In this document: positions 26,498-30,505 of the stretch, in pieces | Layout: every line of letters begins with the position of its first letter | Position numbering within the stretch: the first letter of the stretch is position 1 | Source of the DNA: an uncultured Clostridium sp. | Lineage (GTDB): Bacteria; Bacillota; Clostridia; TANB77; CAG-508 | Length of the DNA: 64,000 nt | Reading direction: 5' to 3' | Assembly (NCBI GenBank): GCA_905213875.1 | Contig: CAJMJN010000001.1 | Coordinates: 59,940 to 123,939, forward strand | Notes under the pieces: generated by a model | Told to the model about the DNA's origin: nothing | Database searches by the model: none | Seen by the model: only the letters and a program-made list of their open reading frames with translations | Translations under genes and position numbers: made by a program

Positions 26498-27061
26498 ATG
26501 AAAGATTTAAGAGTACAAAGAACATACATTTTATTAAAAGAGGCTTTTTTTAAATTACTAGCTAAAAAGCCTTTCGAAGAAATCAAAGTTAATGACATAT
26601 GTAATCTTGCTATGATACATAGAACAACTTTTTATCATCATTTTCAAGATAAATATGATTTACTAGAATTTTGCATTCAAGATGTTGAACAAGAATTAGT
26701 AACTAATATAACTAAAAAAAGTTATCAAAATATTCAAGAATTTTATTCTAATTTAGTAACTAGTTTATTAGAGTATATAGCTGATAAAAAAGATGTTTTT
26801 GTTAATATTTTAAAACATAATTCTAAAAGTTCTTTAACTGAAGTATTTTTAAATACTTGTGTTAATTACATATCTTCTAGGTTAAAAAAGGAATATCAAC
26901 AAGGGATTTATCCTATTGCAGATATAGATGTTATATCTCATTTTTATTCAGGGGCTGTTCTTTCAACCATTGTATGGTGGCTTGAGTCTAATAGTTCTAT
27001 GTCTGAAGCTGAACTTTGTGATATGATTATTAATTTAATTTTTAAAGTTCCTAAGAAATGA
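26498..27061 (+). CDS. TetR/AcrR family transcriptional regulator, divergent from the YhgE/Pip gene
   Basis: TetR helix-turn-helix EAFFKLLAKKPFEEIKVNDICNLAMIHRTTFYHHF. Confidence 0.8.
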   Translation: MKDLRVQRTYILLKEAFFKLLAKKPFEEIKVNDICNLAMIHRTTFYHHFQDKYDLLEFCIQDVEQELVTNITKKSYQNIQEFYSNLVTSLLEYIADKKDVFVNILKHNSKSSLTEVFLNTCVNYISSRLKKEYQQGIYPIADIDVISHFYSGAVLSTIVWWLESNSSMSEAELCDMIINLIFKVPKK

Positions 27062-27065
27062 AAAA

Positions 27066-27104
27066 AACGATAAAATGCTAATTTTTAACATTTTATCGTT
27101 TTTT
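27066..27104 (+). terminator. Rho-independent terminator of the tetR gene
   Basis: AAACGATAAAATG-N11-CATTTTATCGTTT followed by TTTTT. Confidence 0.55.
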
Positions 27105-27117
27105 ATTGGAGGCGACA
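27103..27117. repeat. 15-bp direct repeat TTATTGGAGGCGACA, distal copy; candidate attachment-site remnant
   Basis: Identical 15-mer at 30123-30137, where it covers the 3' end (CCA end plus 4 nt) of tRNA-Cys. Confidence 0.5.
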
Positions 27118-27244
27118 GTCAGGTTGAGTGTATCCTGTATTCCTCTTGTATTCTGTACTTTTGTGTTGAAAAAACCTTATTTTAACACATTTTTAACCCA
27201 ATAATTATTTTATATAACATATTGTAACACACTCTAAAAATTCA

Positions 27245-27274
27245 TTGACAAATAATTTAATTAGGGTGTATAAT
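27245..27274 (+). promoter_or_regulatory. Near-consensus sigma-A promoter, TTGACA-18-TATAAT
   Basis: TTGACA at 27245-27250 and TATAAT at 27269-27274. Confidence 0.5.
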
Positions 27275-27281
27275 ATAGATA

Positions 27282-27367
27282 GAAAATGAGAACACAAATA
27301 ATGTGTGTTACCTAAAAAGTTAAGTATACACCGCTAGCTCTGTGAAAGCGTATGTGGTGTATTTTTT
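27282..27367 (+). ncRNA. Candidate small RNA of about 85 nt driven by the consensus promoter. Two hairpins and an intrinsic terminator. Antisense to the 3' end of the convergent small-peptide transcript.
   Basis: AACACA-aataa-TGTGTT hairpin, then GTATACACC...GGTGTAT and a U-run. No open reading frame. Confidence 0.4.
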
Positions 27368-27473
27368 ATTGTTGCTTATTTGATAGTATTATGTATATAA
27401 CACTTAATAAGGCAACGTTTATAGTTATTGAAATCATAAATCCTATTATTAAGAACATTAAAAAATCTAACAT
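27366..27473 (-). CDS. 35-aa hydrophobic peptide MLDFLMFLIIGFMISITINVALLSVIYIILSNKQQ; candidate type I toxin
   Basis: Strong Shine-Dalgarno GGAGGTGGTG 5 nt before the ATG. One transmembrane helix and a polar tail. Convergent and overlapping with the small RNA. Absent from the ORF track because it is shorter than 60 aa. Confidence 0.4.
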   Translation of the reverse strand: MLDFLMFLIIGFMISITINVALLSVIYIILSNKQQ

Positions 27474-27841
27474 ATAAACACCACCTCCAATCTCTCAACT
27501 ATTGTTGAGGAATTAAAGGTAACACCCACATCTGCTTTTATCTCATTTCCTATGTAAATTATATTACAACATTTTTCTATAAAAAACAAGCGAACATTAC
27601 AAACTTTTGCAAATTATTAATGCCTATCATTGTATCATATAAAATGTAATATTCATTAAGTAGTCTTAATATACTTCCCAAAATTCTTAAATATAGTTCC
27701 AAAATCATTTTATTTAGAAATACAACAAATTATACATCTATATACTAAAATTGAAAATAAGTTCTTTAAAAGATTTAATAATAATTATATATATTATAGT
27801 TTTTACTGTATATTCATTAATATATATTTTGAGATTATATT

Positions 27842-29044
27842 TTAAAATGGCAAATCTGCAAAGTCGGTATTATATTTTTCTAATCTTCCTTGTAAATTTT
27901 GTTTTATTATTTCTCGTTGTTTATAGTTACAATTATTTAACCAATCAATACTTTGTAATATTAAAGAAGTTGGAATAGTATAAATGTCATAACATTCGCC
28001 ATCATATTGATTCCATCCAGTTGAGCTTTCGTTTACCTTTACCACTTTCCCAAAAAAGCATTCAGCAAAGTCCTTATTATTTAGTACTTTATCTTCTAGA
28101 CAATATTTTACTGAAATAGCTTCTAATTTTTGAATAATTACATTTATTTCATTGACGTTTGTACCATATTCAACGCTTTCAATTGTTTCATCTAATTTTT
28201 CAACAATTTCTTTATAAATATCCTTTTCATCTTGACTAAAAATAGCCTTATTCCTAAGTTCTTTTTCAGACATTTTGTTTTGTACTTCAGCAAATGAATT
28301 TATTCTATTTGAAACATTATATTCTATCATTTCATTAAGTACGGAGAAATATCTAAAGTTTTTTATATTATTTTCTTCAATTATTTGTTTAATTAATTGA
28401 CCTACAAAATAGATTTCAGTTTTATTATTATAAATTGGTTCATTATCATCTCTAGTATTCATTTCACTTGGTAGATTTGCAATCCAATTATTTTTATATA
28501 AAGTTAATGGGCTTACATTATTATCTGTAGAATATCTTTTTCCAAATCCAAAATCAATTATTTTCACAATACCATTTGAATTAATAAGAATATTATTGCT
28601 TCTTATATCACGATGGCACAGTTTATGTTGTTCCAAATAACAAAATCCACTTATTATTTGTTCAAAAATATTATTAAGTGTTTCCGTATTATTTCCTATA
28701 TATTCATTTAAACTTTTAGCATTTTCAACATATTCCATAATTATATAGCCTACTTGTTCATTTGGATATATATAATTATTATATATTCTTACAATATTCG
28801 GATGAACAATTTTATTTAAAATTTTTACTTCAGAAATAAATTTATCAAAATATCGTTTTTTTTCGTTAGTATCGGTTATAGTTATACTAGGTTCATACTT
28901 CTTACAGGCATATAATTCATCAATAATTTCATCTTTAATTAAAACTGTTCTTGAAAAAGAACCTGCCCCTAGATTTTGAATAAATTTATAGTCTTTAGCT
29001 CTTATAAACGGTATTATATCCCCAGATTTTAATTCTTTTTTCAT
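27842..29044 (-). CDS. Eukaryotic-like Ser/Thr protein kinase with an uncharacterized C-terminal domain of about 190 aa
   Basis: Glycine loop LGAGSFSRT, lysine in YACKKY, catalytic loop HRDIRSNNILI, and DFG. The C-terminal half has no recognisable motifs. Confidence 0.75.
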   Translation of the reverse strand: MKKELKSGDIIPFIRAKDYKFIQNLGAGSFSRTVLIKDEIIDELYACKKYEPSITITDTNEKKRYFDKFISEVKILNKIVHPNIVRIYNNYIYPNEQVGYIIMEYVENAKSLNEYIGNNTETLNNIFEQIISGFCYLEQHKLCHRDIRSNNILINSNGIVKIIDFGFGKRYSTDNNVSPLTLYKNNWIANLPSEMNTRDDNEPIYNNKTEIYFVGQLIKQIIEENNIKNFRYFSVLNEMIEYNVSNRINSFAEVQNKMSEKELRNKAIFSQDEKDIYKEIVEKLDETIESVEYGTNVNEINVIIQKLEAISVKYCLEDKVLNNKDFAECFFGKVVKVNESSTGWNQYDGECYDIYTIPTSLILQSIDWLNNCNYKQREIIKQNLQGRLEKYNTDFADLPF

Positions 29045-29256
29045 ATTTTTCCCCCTATTTTATTTATATATCATAGATATTTCTTTTTTTCAATATACTA
29101 CATATATAAGTCATGTATAATTTATGATATGATCACGGGAGTTTGACAGTTTTAAATTCAAAAAATCATTAAAAGCATTGAAATGTGTTACAAAATATGA
29201 TATATTATTTTGGTAGATAATAAAACTGACAATACGTAAAAAATAGGAGGAAAATT

Positions 29257-29779
29257 ATGGTTAAGTGTAAAACTAAAATTACTCAAAATGAATTAGATGC
29301 TTTAATAGAAATCCAATTATTAAGTAAAAAGAATAAAGAGAAAAGAAAGCTAGGTAGAATTGTATTTGTTGTATCAGCTATTCTGACGTTTTTGCTAGCG
29401 ACCAAAAGTTATTTTCATTATAATTTCGTAAGAGCAGTGATTTTTGGTGTTTTTTGTATATTCTCTGTATTTATGGCGACAGTTGGGGCAACATTAAAAC
29501 AAAAATTTATTTTAAAGAAAATGCAGAATAAAGCAGATGCAAAAATGAAATCGGGAGTAAGAGAATATGAATTCAGCGAAAAACGGAGTTACTATCGATT
29601 CTGAAACTGGACATACTAAAAGCAACTGGAATGCCTTTAAGTTATGGGGAATATATAAAAATTATATTTATGTGAGAAGAATTGATGATGGTATGATTCT
29701 TATAAATAAAAACGATTTATCAAATAGCGCGGCAGATGAATTAGAGGCTTTGCTGAATACAAATGTAAAAGAAGATTAA
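29257..29779 (+). pseudogene. YcxB-like protein (two transmembrane helices + bPH/PH-like domain) interrupted by a -1 frameshift at an A5 run, 29590-29594
   Basis: ORF 29257-29604 and ORF 29567-29779 overlap. Adding one A restores ...EYEFSEKNGVTIDSETGH..., which reads YcxB-like as one protein (KLWGIYKNYIYVRRIDDGMILINKNDL). Confidence 0.55.
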
Positions 29780-29883
29780 AAGAGGCCAATTATTGCTTAA
29801 AAATAAAATTTAATTGTACTAGAAATAGAATATTTATAGAATTAATATGAAGGATATTAAAAAAATAATTTGAATTTATGAGG

Positions 29884-29912
29884 TATTGAAATAATCAATA
29901 CCCCTTTTTTAT
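29884..29912 (+). terminator. Rho-independent terminator
   Basis: GGTATTGA-aataa-TCAATACC followed by CCTTTTTT. Confidence 0.6.
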
Positions 29913-30082
29913 ATTATAGGAAAGTGCTCATTTTGAACAAAAAACATAATAAGAAAAAAGGCATCAATAAAAGAAGCCTTCAAGAAAAAATAGACTCCTT
30001 TAAGGGGTAGTGACTGACAATTGTAAAAGTCAGTCGCAAAGGCCACTTCAGTGGTAGCCAGTAGAGAAGCCTTTTAGGCGTA

Positions 30083-30110
30083 AAGGAAAAACCACCAGCT
30101 AAGCTGGTGG
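30083..30110 (-). terminator. Terminator downstream of tRNA-Cys
   Basis: On the minus strand: CCACCAGC-TTA-GCTGGTGG followed by TTTTTCC. Confidence 0.6.
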
Positions 30111-30122
30111 AAATTTATTACA

Positions 30123-30137
30123 TTATTGGAGGCGACA
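30123..30137. repeat. 15-bp direct repeat TTATTGGAGGCGACA, proximal copy that overlaps the tRNA-Cys 3' end
   Basis: See 27103-27117. Confidence 0.5.
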
Positions 30138-30200
30138 CCCGGATTCGAACCGGGGATCGAGATTTTGCAGACCTGTGCCTTACCACTTGGCTATGTCGCC
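30127..30200 (-). tRNA. tRNA-Cys (anticodon GCA)
   Basis: Manual fold: acceptor stem GGCGACA/TGTCGCC, anticodon loop CUGCAAA, T-arm CCCGG-TTCGAAT-CCGGG, CCA encoded. One C-C mismatch at the base of the anticodon stem. Confidence 0.75.
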
Positions 30201-30308: not shown

Positions 30309-30505
30309 TATTTCAGATTTTAACCTTCGCCTTGCCAAGGTTATTTTTTCTGATAAATATTATTTTTTAATTCTTTTATATACTATGCACTAGCATTTAA
30401 AATAATACCAAAAATCCACCATATTGTCAAGTATTATGGTGGATTTTCTTGTAAATCCTAAGTAAAATTCCCTTTTATATTTATAAGTATTTTCAATTCT
30501 AATAT

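What the first reader, a model, noticed from the sequence alone, without database searches (positions are those of the whole stretch)
27103..30200. About 3-kb islet next to tRNA-Cys, flanked by a 15-bp direct repeat of the tRNA 3' end and carrying a kinase, a YcxB-like gene and a toxin-antitoxin-like pair
The 15-mer TTATTGGAGGCGACA occurs twice in the window. One copy (30123-30137) spans the 3' end of the minus-strand tRNA-Cys (last 11 nt plus 4). The other (27103-27117) sits directly after the terminator of the upstream tetR gene. Duplication of a tRNA 3' end as attL/attR is the classic footprint of a site-specific integrative element. The 3 kb between the copies contains only accessory-type genes: a convergent small-RNA/hydrophobic-peptide pair, a eukaryotic-like Ser/Thr kinase with an unknown C-terminal domain, a frameshifted YcxB-like gene and a structured noncoding stretch. 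There is no integrase. This could be an integrase-less satellite or decayed islet mobilised in trans, or a very compact defence islet.
Basis: partly seen in the sequence, partly recalled or inferred. Interest (0 to 1): 0.7.

Follow-up and report, generated by a model that had tools for sequence, protein, structure and literature searches.

The report
Decayed tRNA-Cys island without integrase
A 3-kb block of foreign DNA at the end of a tRNA-Cys gene in an uncultured gut Clostridium is the worn-down remnant of an integrating element that lost its integrase but kept a protein kinase and a small toxin-antitoxin pair; this is a real but fairly ordinary kind of genomic islet.

Summary
TTATTGGAGGCGACA occurs exactly twice, at 27103-27117 and 30123-30137, and the second copy covers the last 11 nt of tRNA-Cys plus 4 nt. 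Natural empty sites exist: one metagenomic strain equals another plus a 3,021-bp insertion with exactly this 15-bp duplication.

The left copy still abuts the native tRNA-Cys terminator hairpin. That is what integration into the tRNA 3' end predicts.

A sister element at the same site shares the left about 650 bp (core, arm, toxin-antitoxin module) and carries a tyrosine-integrase pseudogene next to the tRNA. Other strains of the same species carry the full-length integrase there, with repressor, excisionase and primase genes.

The window islet has no integrase. It holds:
- a type I toxin-antitoxin-like module
- a Hanks-type kinase with an unmatched C-terminal domain, whose relatives sit in defence islands
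- a frameshifted YcxB gene

It fits a cis-mobilizable-element-like remnant inside a hypervariable tetR/tRNA-Cys hotspot with at least 11 configurations. Identical islets occur on diverged flanks, so spread was recent; whether by integrase in trans or by homologous recombination is unresolved. It is a new member of a known kind, of moderate interest.

The parts
27062..27102 (.). Native bidirectional terminator hairpin of tRNA-Cys (also ends tetR), displaced about 3 kb from the tRNA by the insertion
   Evidence: Found by the terminator scan. The same stems abut the tRNA-Cys 3' end directly in the empty-site strain L009. A homologous hairpin abuts it in another species, L039.
27103..27117 (+). 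Distal att copy (attL-like): the original chromosomal tRNA-Cys 3' end (11 nt) plus 4 nt
   Evidence: L002 equals L009 plus a 3,021-bp insertion with duplication of exactly these 15 bp.
27118..27240 (+). Distal arm of the element, with one pair of putative arm-type integrase sites 11 bp apart: TTTTAACACA at 27180 and TTTTAACCCA at 27191
   Evidence: About 94-96% identical to the distal arm of the integrase-pseudogene element L043 and to L059. The motif TTTTAACCCA occurs four times (two pairs) beside the integrase gene in L043, L051 and L054, and only here in the window.
27245..27367 (+). Putative antitoxin sRNA gene: perfect TTGACA-18-TATAAT promoter at 27245-27274, transcript about 27281-27367, ending in a terminator hairpin shared with the toxin mRNA
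   Evidence: Conserved with its promoter in L002, L039, L003 and L064.
27366..27600 (-). Type I toxin gene: promoter and 5' UTR at about 27474-27600, SD GGAGGTGGTG, and a 35-aa hydrophobic peptide MLDFLMFLIIGFMISITINVALLSVIYIILSNKQQ at 27366-27473
   Evidence: The module is conserved in four cassette types and species, and the motif (I/V)NVALL is kept. It has no Pfam, NCBIfam or PADLOC match.
27842..29044 (-). Hanks-type Ser/Thr kinase of 400 aa (kinase domain about 1-260) with a conserved C-terminal domain of unknown fold (262-400)
29257..29779 (+). YcxB-like membrane protein gene disrupted by a +1 frameshift in the A5 run at 29579-29583 (ORFs 29257-29604 and 29567-29779)
   Evidence: PF14317, E 6e-7, on the second ORF. 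The same split is called in the loci of both islet alleles examined, and the 115-aa piece occurs on hundreds of contigs.
29976..30122 (+). Remnant of an IS200/IS605-type insertion sequence: the last about 11 codons of tnpA (..SLQEKIDSFKG*) and the structured right end, finishing in the hairpin CCACCAGCTAAGCTGGTGG. This hairpin now also serves as the terminator directly after tRNA-Cys on the - strand.
   Evidence: It aligns with the region 3' of intact IS200 tnpA genes in L036 (same species) and in C. perfringens pCPF4969, with 5 compensatory pairs. Fold z-scores are -5.4 and -4.5. The terminator scan also finds the hairpin.
30123..30137 (+). Proximal att copy (attR-like), which forms the functional 3' end of tRNA-Cys
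30127..30200 (-). tRNA-Cys(gca), the intact integration target
   Evidence: ARAGORN and Rfam at 61.6 bits.

Best explanation
The segment 27103-30122 is the non-autonomous, decayed remnant of a tRNA-Cys-specific integrative element. It resembles a cis-mobilizable element (CIME).

Proposed history:
1. An ancestral element carried a tyrosine integrase of the P0188 family. It recombined its attP with the last 12-15 bp of tRNA-Cys.
2. The element-borne copy regenerated the tRNA (30123-30137). The original 3' end, with its native terminator hairpin, was pushed about 3 kb away (27062-27117).
3. The integrase, regulatory and replication side next to the tRNA was later lost. An IS200 insertion followed by deletion probably contributed, since only IS200 right-end debris now abuts the core.

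What is left:
- the distal arm with one pair of arm-type sites
- a type I toxin-antitoxin module, which plausibly keeps the islet from being lost
- a Hanks-type kinase with a novel C-terminal sensor-like domain; the inferred role is abortive-infection-type phage defence, with the C-terminal domain sensing and the kinase phosphorylating host or phage proteins
- a dead YcxB gene

Shown: the insertion geometry, the empty site, homology to an integrase-bearing sister element, and loss of the integrase.

Inferred: the order of decay events, the role of the toxin-antitoxin module, and the defence role of the kinase.

The islet now spreads among strains as a passenger. The most likely route is homologous recombination of the conserved flanks.
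For: Insertion geometry:
- The 15-bp direct repeat is exact and non-random.
- L002 equals L009 plus 3,021 bp with exactly that duplication, and the 1,648 bp to the left are 100% identical.
- The native terminator hairpin sits beside the distal copy in the window. It sits directly beside the tRNA in the empty-site strains and in other species.

Link to an integrase-bearing element:
- L043 has tetR, hairpin, TTTTTGGAGGCGACA, then the same arm and toxin-antitoxin module (94% identity over window 26998-27752). After that come a 420-aa gene, an integrase pseudogene, an arm with four TTTTAACCCA copies, and tRNA-Cys.
- The full-length integrase P0188 is 78% identical to that pseudogene. It lies beside the same tRNA-Cys and topA in the same species, next to repressor, AlpA-like excisionase and primase genes.
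- The same element family sits at tRNA-Cys in other species.

Independent occurrence: a related kinase plus toxin-antitoxin islet lies at tRNA-Cys in a different species with different flanks. It is bounded by a repeat of about 52 bp made of the tRNA end plus the terminator.

Loss of autonomy: the islet and the whole window lack an integrase, and the proximal side is IS200 debris.

Cargo: kinase relatives sit after hsdRMS, beside ubiquitin-like defence genes.

Recent spread: the A-type islet shows 0 differences in 3,020 bp across four left-flank haplotypes that differ at 0, 22, 42 and 43-44 positions from the window in 2.86 kb.
Against: - No integrase-bearing element with exactly the window's cargo was found, so the parent is inferred from a sister element (L043), not observed.
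- The distal end of an intact element of the L051 type lay beyond the retrievable 10 kb. Its distal arm therefore could not be compared with the window's.
- The defence role of the kinase rests on neighbourhood and on generic kinase-domain hits. PADLOC PD-T4-6 and mad6 matches cover residues 16-176 only, and those models also hit housekeeping kinases (PMC11514479).
- Loci L011-L019 were retrieved by requiring an identical kinase protein, which biases that 1.2 kb towards identity. The other 1.8 kb, and the loci retrieved through topA (L029-L037), are equally identical.
Confidence: 0.75

Rival explanations
1. The islet is still an active hitch-hiker. Its two cores, together with the remaining arm sites, are recognised in trans by the P0188-type integrase and excisionase of a co-resident tRNA-Cys element. 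The islet therefore excises, circularises and re-integrates, or moves in tandem after accretion. This would explain its clonal spread.
For: - Presence/absence polymorphism falls exactly at the 15-bp core in two different left contexts, A and B/D.
- Islets are identical on diverged flanks. Conversely, a 1.2%-different islet allele sits on a flank nearly identical to the window's, with 2 differences in 2.86 kb.
- In L011 and L014 the nearest flank SNP is only 36 bp from the core, at 27067.
- The cognate integrase exists in the same species.
- Tandem accretion of an element of this general type with a kinase islet is seen at tRNA-Pro, L026 versus L025.
- There is precedent in CIMEs (PMC5704250) and in recombinase-less defence cassettes mobilised by SCCmec Ccr recombinases (PMC10055296).
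Against: - The tRNA-proximal side has none of the conserved arm motifs (four TTTTAACCCA, two TAACACGTTGTAAAAC). It consists of IS200 debris right up to the core.
- No circular junction was found, and no viral-contig copy.
- No contig was recovered in which the integrase element and the islet lie in tandem at tRNA-Cys.
- Homologous recombination in the conserved flanks explains the same population pattern.
Confidence: 0.2
2. The repeat is not an att footprint. Under this view the tetR/tRNA-Cys interval is simply a hypervariable spot where alternative cassettes are exchanged by homologous recombination, and the 15-mer arose by local duplication or by chance.
For: - At least 11 alternative contents occupy the interval: 426-aa, HAD, 455-aa, 411-aa, DGR-like, RhuM, 420-aa, toxin-antitoxin only, and others.
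- Apart from the kinase islet and its sister element L043, none of them has a second copy of the tRNA end.
Against: - The 15-mer is not expected by chance.
- The insertion is exact to the base.
- The same core-plus-arm junction occurs in L043 beside an integrase pseudogene, and in a third chromosomal context, L059.
- A related islet sits at tRNA-Cys in a species with unrelated flanks.
Confidence: 0.04
3. The block was brought in by the IS200/IS605-type element whose right end abuts the tRNA, through single-strand 'peel and paste' transposition or an IS-mediated rearrangement.
For: IS200 right-end debris lies flush with the proximal core. An intact IS200 sits beside the same tRNA-Cys in L036.
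Against: - This family makes no target duplications.
- The islet's other end has no left-end hairpin. It is instead the arm shared with an integrase element.
- No Y1 transposase is present in the window.
- The related islets L039 and L043 lack IS200 sequence.
Confidence: 0.02

Closest known systems
Cis-mobilizable elements (CIMEs) of streptococci: decayed ICE/IME remnants that keep attL and attR, such as those at fda or tRNA-Lys (review PMC5704250)
   Same: Flanked by attL and attR made from the 3' end of the target gene. Has no integration or transfer genes. Related to integrase-bearing elements that use the same site in the same species. Sits in a locus where elements accrete.
   Different: Much smaller, at 3 kb. 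The relatives look like small prophage- or satellite-like elements (integrase, repressor, AlpA-type excisionase, primase) rather than conjugative ones. The arm next to the target gene has been replaced by IS200 debris, so even cis-mobilisation is uncertain. Nothing has been tested experimentally.
Recombinase-less tandem SCC-type cassettes carrying anti-phage defences, mobilised by SCCmec Ccr recombinases (PMC10055296)
   Same: Small cassettes at a fixed chromosomal att site, bounded by short direct repeats. They lack their own recombinase and carry defence-type cargo, including Ser/Thr kinases. The hotspot holds many alternative cassettes.
   Different: The target is a tRNA gene rather than rlmH. 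The cognate recombinase is a tyrosine integrase, not a large serine recombinase. Mobilisation is not shown here.
Single-gene Ser/Thr-kinase phage defences (PD-T4-6 of E. coli; Stk2 of Staphylococcus epidermidis; MAD6 of MADS)
   Same: A Hanks-type kinase with intact catalytic residues, fused to a non-kinase C-terminal domain. It is sporadically distributed across phyla and sits in islands and next to restriction-modification systems.
   Different: Only the kinase core (residues 16-176) matches the PADLOC profiles. The 139-residue C-terminal domain has no match in Pfam or the PDB. No phenotype is known.
Convergent, 3'-overlapping type I toxin-antitoxin systems of Firmicutes (for example txpA/RatA and bsrG/SR4 of Bacillus prophage-like regions). 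This comparison rests on my own knowledge.
   Same: A small hydrophobic peptide with a polar tail. A convergent sRNA shares a bidirectional terminator with the toxin mRNA. The module is located on mobile or decaying elements.
   Different: No sequence similarity was detected to any library family. Both RNAs begin with the same roughly 13-nt sequence AUAGRAAAUGAGA, which is not a described feature. Expression and toxicity are untested.

Membership tests
CIME (cis-mobilizable element) | Bounded by attL and attR produced by site-specific integration into a target gene end | tested here: met
   15-bp exact repeat of the tRNA-Cys 3' end. The empty site differs by exactly the insert plus one repeat copy.
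CIME (cis-mobilizable element) | Lacks integration/excision and transfer genes | tested here: met
   The ORF list and Pfam/NCBIfam scans show none. tblastn of the cognate integrases against the window gives E of 0.3 or worse.
CIME (cis-mobilizable element) | Derived by decay from an integrase-encoding element of the same att specificity | tested here: met
   L043 shares the core, arm and toxin-antitoxin module (94%) and carries an integrase pseudogene. A full-length integrase lies at the same tRNA in the same species. The arm-type motif is shared. The direction of descent is inferred.
CIME (cis-mobilizable element) | Can be excised or transferred when a related element supplies the recombinase (accretion-mobilisation) | not testable with these tools
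   Only indirect population evidence is available. The proximal arm sites are missing.
tRNA-targeting tyrosine-integrase genomic island | Integrase gene adjacent to the tRNA-proximal att site | tested here: not met
   IS200 debris and YcxB fragments lie there instead. The integrase is present at that position in the relatives L043, L051 and L054.
Phage satellite (PICI-like) | Own integrase, master repressor, replication module and helper-interference/packaging genes | tested here: not met
   None are present in the islet. There is no match in phage records or viral contigs. The larger L051-type relatives do have integrase, repressor, excisionase and primase genes.
PD-T4-6 (PADLOC) single-gene kinase defence | Full-length similarity to a PD-T4-6 profile | tested here: not met
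   The best hit, PDLC04047, covers protein residues 16-167 and profile positions 9-157 of 327. That is the kinase core only.
PD-T4-6 (PADLOC) single-gene kinase defence | Confers phage resistance | not testable with these tools
   Context only: relatives lie downstream of hsdRMS and beside ubiquitin-like defence genes.
Hanks-type (eukaryotic-like) Ser/Thr protein kinase | Gly-rich loop, catalytic Lys, HRD, Asn and DFG motifs, and the kinase fold | tested here: met
   The residues are invariant. PF00069 E 4e-29. Foldseek matches PknB and Stk1 at E about 1e-12.
Type I toxin-antitoxin system | Small hydrophobic toxin ORF with SD, plus an antisense sRNA with its own promoter that overlaps the toxin mRNA | tested here: met
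   Promoters, SD, ORF and shared terminator are conserved in four different cassettes or species.
Type I toxin-antitoxin system | Toxicity of the peptide and neutralisation by the sRNA | not testable with these tools
   No library family matches.
IS200/IS605 insertion sequence (for 29976-30122) | Y1 (HUH) transposase gene | tested here: not met
   Only the last about 11 codons remain. tblastn of the L036 TnpA against the window finds nothing.
IS200/IS605 insertion sequence (for 29976-30122) | Conserved structured right end immediately 3' of tnpA | tested here: met
   A three-way alignment with L036 and pCPF4969 gives 27 predicted pairs, 5 of them with compensatory changes.
YcxB (PF14317) | Intact ORF with N-terminal TM helices and a C-terminal YcxB domain | tested here: not met
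   The domain is present at E 6e-7, but the gene is split by a frameshift in an A5 run.

The most novel reading that the evidence does not exclude
The tetR/tRNA-Cys junction of this gut Clostridium might work as an integron-like exchange point. In that reading, a tRNA-Cys-specific tyrosine integrase supplied by a small satellite-like element shuffles integrase-less cassettes in and out through a 12-15-bp core. The cassettes would be defence candidates stabilised by a shared type I toxin-antitoxin module. Expression of the integrase itself would depend on a conserved +1 frameshift. The 3-kb islet would then be an actively traded cassette rather than a fossil.
Probability: 0.15. Interest if true: 0.6.

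Novelty: new member of a known kind. Interest (0 to 1): 0.35.

Why it matters
- It is a clean natural example, with filled sites, empty sites and a sister element, of how an integrative element decays into a minimal islet. The islet keeps only its att cores, an addiction module and a candidate defence gene, and it still spreads clonally through a species of the human gut microbiome.
- It flags a widespread kinase family of about 370-400 aa. More than 1,000 proteins matched the kinase at E <= 1e-5 across phyla, and the best 120 are mostly full-length matches. The family has an uncharacterised C-terminal domain and defence-island neighbours, which makes it a testable single-gene defence candidate.
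- It also flags a conserved clostridial type I toxin-antitoxin module.
- None of this changes current concepts.

Tried and rejected
- **Rfam.** Gathering and permissive scans found nothing in the islet besides the tRNAs.
- **Phage and plasmid DNA searches with the 3-kb block.** Phage records gave only trivial matches. Plasmid records gave only the roughly 50-nt IS200-end match in C. perfringens plasmids, which turned out to be informative.
- **Viral-contig scans.** The att/arm junction, the hairpin and the integrase gave no hits.
- **Metagenome scan for the core-plus-arm junction.** It returned one chance hit (L058), one B-type locus (L060) and one new context (L059). No circular junction was found.
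- **Genome-contig scan with the kinase.** It returned only two loci, L039 and L040, and neither is the window's own species.
- **Other cassette proteins.** PADLOC and Pfam scans of the 426-, 420-, 455-, 411- and 431-aa proteins found nothing useful.
- **Ideas rejected.** I rejected IS200-mediated delivery, a chance repeat, and a phage satellite (see rivals). I also rejected the idea that the 29985-30122 structure is an islet-specific regulatory RNA.
- **Not reached.** The distal end of an intact integrase element lay beyond the 10-kb flank limit (L051, L054, L071).


Full report
**1. Observation**

The 15-mer TTATTGGAGGCGACA occurs at 27103-27117 and 30123-30137 and nowhere else in the window, even allowing two mismatches. 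None of 100 dinucleotide-preserving shuffles gave two copies. ARAGORN and Rfam place tRNA-Cys(gca) at 30127-30200 on the minus strand, followed by tRNA-Gly. The right copy is therefore the last 11 nt of the tRNA, CCA included, plus 4 nt.

The left copy follows a long hairpin at 27062-27104 that begins right after the tetR stop codon. Between the copies lie these features:
- a convergent pair of promoter/sRNA and a 35-aa hydrophobic ORF
- a 400-aa Pkinase protein
- a YcxB-like gene in two overlapping frames
- a G+C-rich structured stretch

There is no recombinase.

**2. Empty site and insertion geometry**

Exact-protein look-ups with TetR, the kinase and TopA retrieved dozens of human-gut metagenome contigs of the same species, an uncultured Clostridium sp.. 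The interval between the tetR stop and the tRNA-Cys 3' end is hypervariable.
- L009 has tetR, a 426-aa gene, a hairpin, and then tRNA-Cys with one copy of the 15-mer.
- L002, L005 and L008 are the same plus a 3,021-bp insertion, the islet. The 1,648 bp to the left are 100% identical, and exactly the 15-mer is duplicated.

The hairpin next to the window's left copy has the same stems as the hairpin that abuts tRNA-Cys in L009. A homologous hairpin abuts tRNA-Cys in other lineages and species. So the left copy plus hairpin is the original tRNA end with its native terminator, displaced by the insertion. The right copy came with the element. This is the canonical geometry of integration into a tRNA 3' end.

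**3. The parent family**

A sister lineage carries a related element at the same site. In L043 the order is:
- tetR
- hairpin
- TTTTTGGAGGCGACA
- the same arm (GTCAGGTTGAGTG...) and the same toxin-antitoxin module, 94% identical to window 26998-27752
- a 420-aa unknown gene
- a tyrosine-integrase gene
- an arm with two pairs of TTTTAACCCA and two copies of TAACACGTTGTAAAAC
- tRNA-Cys

L042 is the same with a 151-bp deletion that removes the distal core. That integrase is a pseudogene. The N-terminal 133 residues are missing, and it has a frameshift, an in-frame stop and a 41-residue internal deletion.

Its full-length relative P0188 (431 aa, 78% identity) lies beside the same tRNA-Cys and topA in other strains of the window's species (L051, L052). 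It is followed by an HTH_3 repressor, an HTH_17/AlpA-type excisionase, a DnaG/Toprim primase and unknown genes. Homologous elements occupy tRNA-Cys in other species (L054, L071).

The window's distal arm keeps one pair of the arm motif, at 27180 and 27191. TTTTTAACCCA occurs nowhere else in the 64 kb. The tRNA-proximal side of the window islet has none of these motifs. No integrase homologue exists anywhere in the window.

**4. What replaced the integrase side**

The 'structured noncoding stretch' aligns with the sequence immediately 3' of IS200-type tnpA genes. The comparison sequences are an intact copy beside the same tRNA-Cys in L036 and copies on Clostridium perfringens plasmids. The alignment includes the last codons of the transposase (..SLQEKIDSFKG* versus ..SIKEYKDPFNGS* and ..SLKEYTDPFKGSK*) and a series of hairpins with compensatory changes. 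It ends in CCACCAGCTAAGCTGGTGG-AAATTTATTAC, five bases from the core.

So this stretch is IS200 right-end debris. On the minus strand it now supplies the terminator directly after tRNA-Cys. An IS insertion beside the core, followed by deletion, is a simple route to losing the integrase and the proximal arm. That step is an inference.

The YcxB gene is broken by an extra A in an A5 run at 29579-29583. The break is present in both islet alleles.

**5. Cargo**

Full-length homologues of about 370-400 aa, ending in a conserved DDLPF, occur sporadically in Burkholderia, Psychrobacter, Bacteroides, Zixibacteria and many metagenomes. Close relatives have these contexts:
- Homologues at 75% identity sit as the last gene after hsdR-hsdM-hsdS, next to a resolvase and ubiquitin-like (Multi_ubiq/ThiF/BubE) genes.
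- Another sits in an islet right after tRNA-Pro.
- Another sits between spo0A and unrelated genes, together with the same toxin-antitoxin module.

PADLOC hits to PD-T4-6 and mad6 cover only the kinase core. Such models also hit housekeeping kinases (PMC11514479). I therefore treat 'defence kinase' as a reasonable inference from context, not as family membership.

*Toxin-antitoxin module.* The module is conserved, with both promoters, the SD, the peptide motif (I/V)NVALL and the shared terminator, in five places:
- the window
- the B-type allele
- the HAD cassette, in inverted orientation
- L039
- alone in L064

Its survival where everything else is gone (L064) fits an addiction role.

**6. Independent occurrences**

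In a wild-mouse Clostridia MAG (L039), the flanking genes are unrelated to the window's. A kinase (84% aa identity, apparently frameshifted) plus toxin-antitoxin islet of about 2 kb follows tRNA-Cys. It is bounded by a repeat of about 52 bp consisting of the last 7 nt of the tRNA plus the terminator hairpin. The two copies differ by compensatory stem changes. The sequence next to the distal core (ACACTCAACYTG) is shared with the window.

The core-plus-arm junction also occurs in a third chromosomal context, L059. These cases argue for site-specific targeting of tRNA-Cys rather than local rearrangement.

**7. Population pattern**

Among A-type loci, four left-flank haplotypes differ from the window at 0, 22, 42 and 43-44 positions in 2.86 kb. 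All carry an islet with 0 differences in 3,020 bp. This holds for loci retrieved through TopA rather than through the kinase.

The B-type islet differs at 37 positions. Yet in L002 and L008 it sits on a left flank that differs from the window at only 2 positions. By simple Poisson reasoning, zero differences is not compatible with co-divergence of islet and flank. Each islet allele has therefore spread recently across backgrounds.

The nearest flank differences lie at 27067, 26953 and 26890 on the left, and at 30369 or beyond on the right. This cannot separate integrase-mediated transfer from homologous recombination in the flanks.

**8. The hotspot**

At least 11 contents occupy the tetR/tRNA-Cys interval:
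- the kinase islet
- 426 aa with or without the islet
- HAD plus toxin-antitoxin
- 455 aa
- 411 aa plus 56 aa
- 455 aa plus DGR-like genes (bAvd, RVT_1, MutS_I)
- IS200 plus a flavoprotein and integrase fragments
- toxin-antitoxin plus 420 aa plus the integrase pseudogene
- RhuM plus 284 aa
- toxin-antitoxin only
- the full-length integrase element

Only the kinase islet and L043 retain a second core copy.

**9. Comparison with known systems and verdict**

[quoted passage not shown] The islet fits that description. It also parallels recombinase-less defence cassettes mobilised by SCCmec recombinases (PMC10055296). Two defining points remain untested: recognition by the cognate integrase, and actual mobilisation. 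The missing proximal arm argues against efficient excision.

I therefore file it as a new member of a known kind: a decayed tRNA-Cys integrative islet (confidence 0.75). The active hitch-hiker reading gets about 0.2.

The proposed interest of 0.7 is too high, because the mechanism class is established and the islet looks largely fossil. I score interest at 0.35. What value it has lies in the clean natural series of states, the uncharacterised kinase family, and the side observations listed separately.

Noticed in passing
L051 11215-11420; L054 11215-11420; L043 10457-10660 (not in the window): The tRNA-Cys integrase family (P0188, P0191, P0201, P0204 and others, about 430 aa) always stops at ..RCLEARNE.. 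The catalytic-tyrosine segment (GM[SK][IV]E[IT]IADIIGD..KTYAHI) lies in an overlapping 47-aa ORF in the +1 frame. The site GAG GCT CGG AAT GA is conserved between members only 67% identical, and contiguous versions also exist (P0194, P0195). This looks like a conserved, possibly programmed, +1 frameshift at Ala-GCU followed by the rare codon CGG, which could control integrase expression.
   Followed up: partly
window 27281-27300 (+) and 27530-27548 (-): The toxin mRNA and the convergent sRNA start with nearly the same sequence, AUAGRAAAUGAGA followed by a short hairpin and GUUACC/UGCCA. The same holds in L003, L039 and L064. They are identical rather than complementary 5' ends, and I have no explanation.
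   Followed up: partly
L032 12600-17900 and L038 (same hotspot in other strains): One alternative cassette between tRNA-Cys and tetR carries DGR-like genes: bAvd, a short RVT_1 ORF, and two MutS_I-domain ORFs, next to a 455-aa protein with an N-terminal methylation (pilin-like) motif.
   Followed up: no
L020-L024: Kinase homologues at 75% identity are the fourth gene of a type I restriction-modification operon (hsdR-hsdM-hsdS-kinase, with a 10-bp gap after hsdS). They lie beside a resolvase and a ubiquitin-like (Multi_ubiq/ThiF/BubE) gene set. This suggests a functional link between this kinase family and restriction-modification.
   Followed up: no
L039 9751-9806 and 11763-11815: In another species the kinase plus toxin-antitoxin islet at tRNA-Cys is bounded by a repeat of about 52 bp (tRNA end plus terminator hairpin). 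The two copies differ by compensatory changes in the stem, C-G to T-A. The kinase there seems frameshifted.
   Followed up: partly
L025 9625-9700 versus L026 9296-9319: A 74%-identical kinase lies in an islet directly after tRNA-Pro. In another contig the same islet is preceded by only the last 23 nt of tRNA-Pro and by a large element with resolvase, RadC, DUF8033 and S6-like genes. This is tandem accretion at a second tRNA.
   Followed up: partly
window 29904-29971: A segment of about 65 nt, TATTATAGGAAAGTGCTCATTTTGAAC...AAAAGGCAT, follows a terminator. It is about 81% conserved downstream of the 431-aa gene in the tRNA-Pro islets (L025-L027), just before those contigs end. Its nature is unknown; it could be a small promoter/leader or a repeat.
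   Followed up: no
L064 9898-10375: This is the minimal state of the hotspot. Only the toxin-antitoxin module remains between tetR and the tRNA-Cys terminator. That is consistent with the addiction module being the last part of a decaying islet to survive.
   Followed up: partly
window 27845-28261 (-), kinase residues 262-400: The C-terminal domain is predicted with high confidence (pLDDT 91, pTM 0.83). It has no detectable relative in Pfam or among solved structures. It ends in a nearly invariant DDLPF.
   Followed up: partly
window 29134-29235: The A and B islet alleles differ mostly in two clusters. One is the divergent kinase/YcxB promoter region, which includes a 9-bp indel at 29162-29170. 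The other is the sRNA body at 27313-27333. The kinase coding sequence itself differs at only 2 positions.
   Followed up: no
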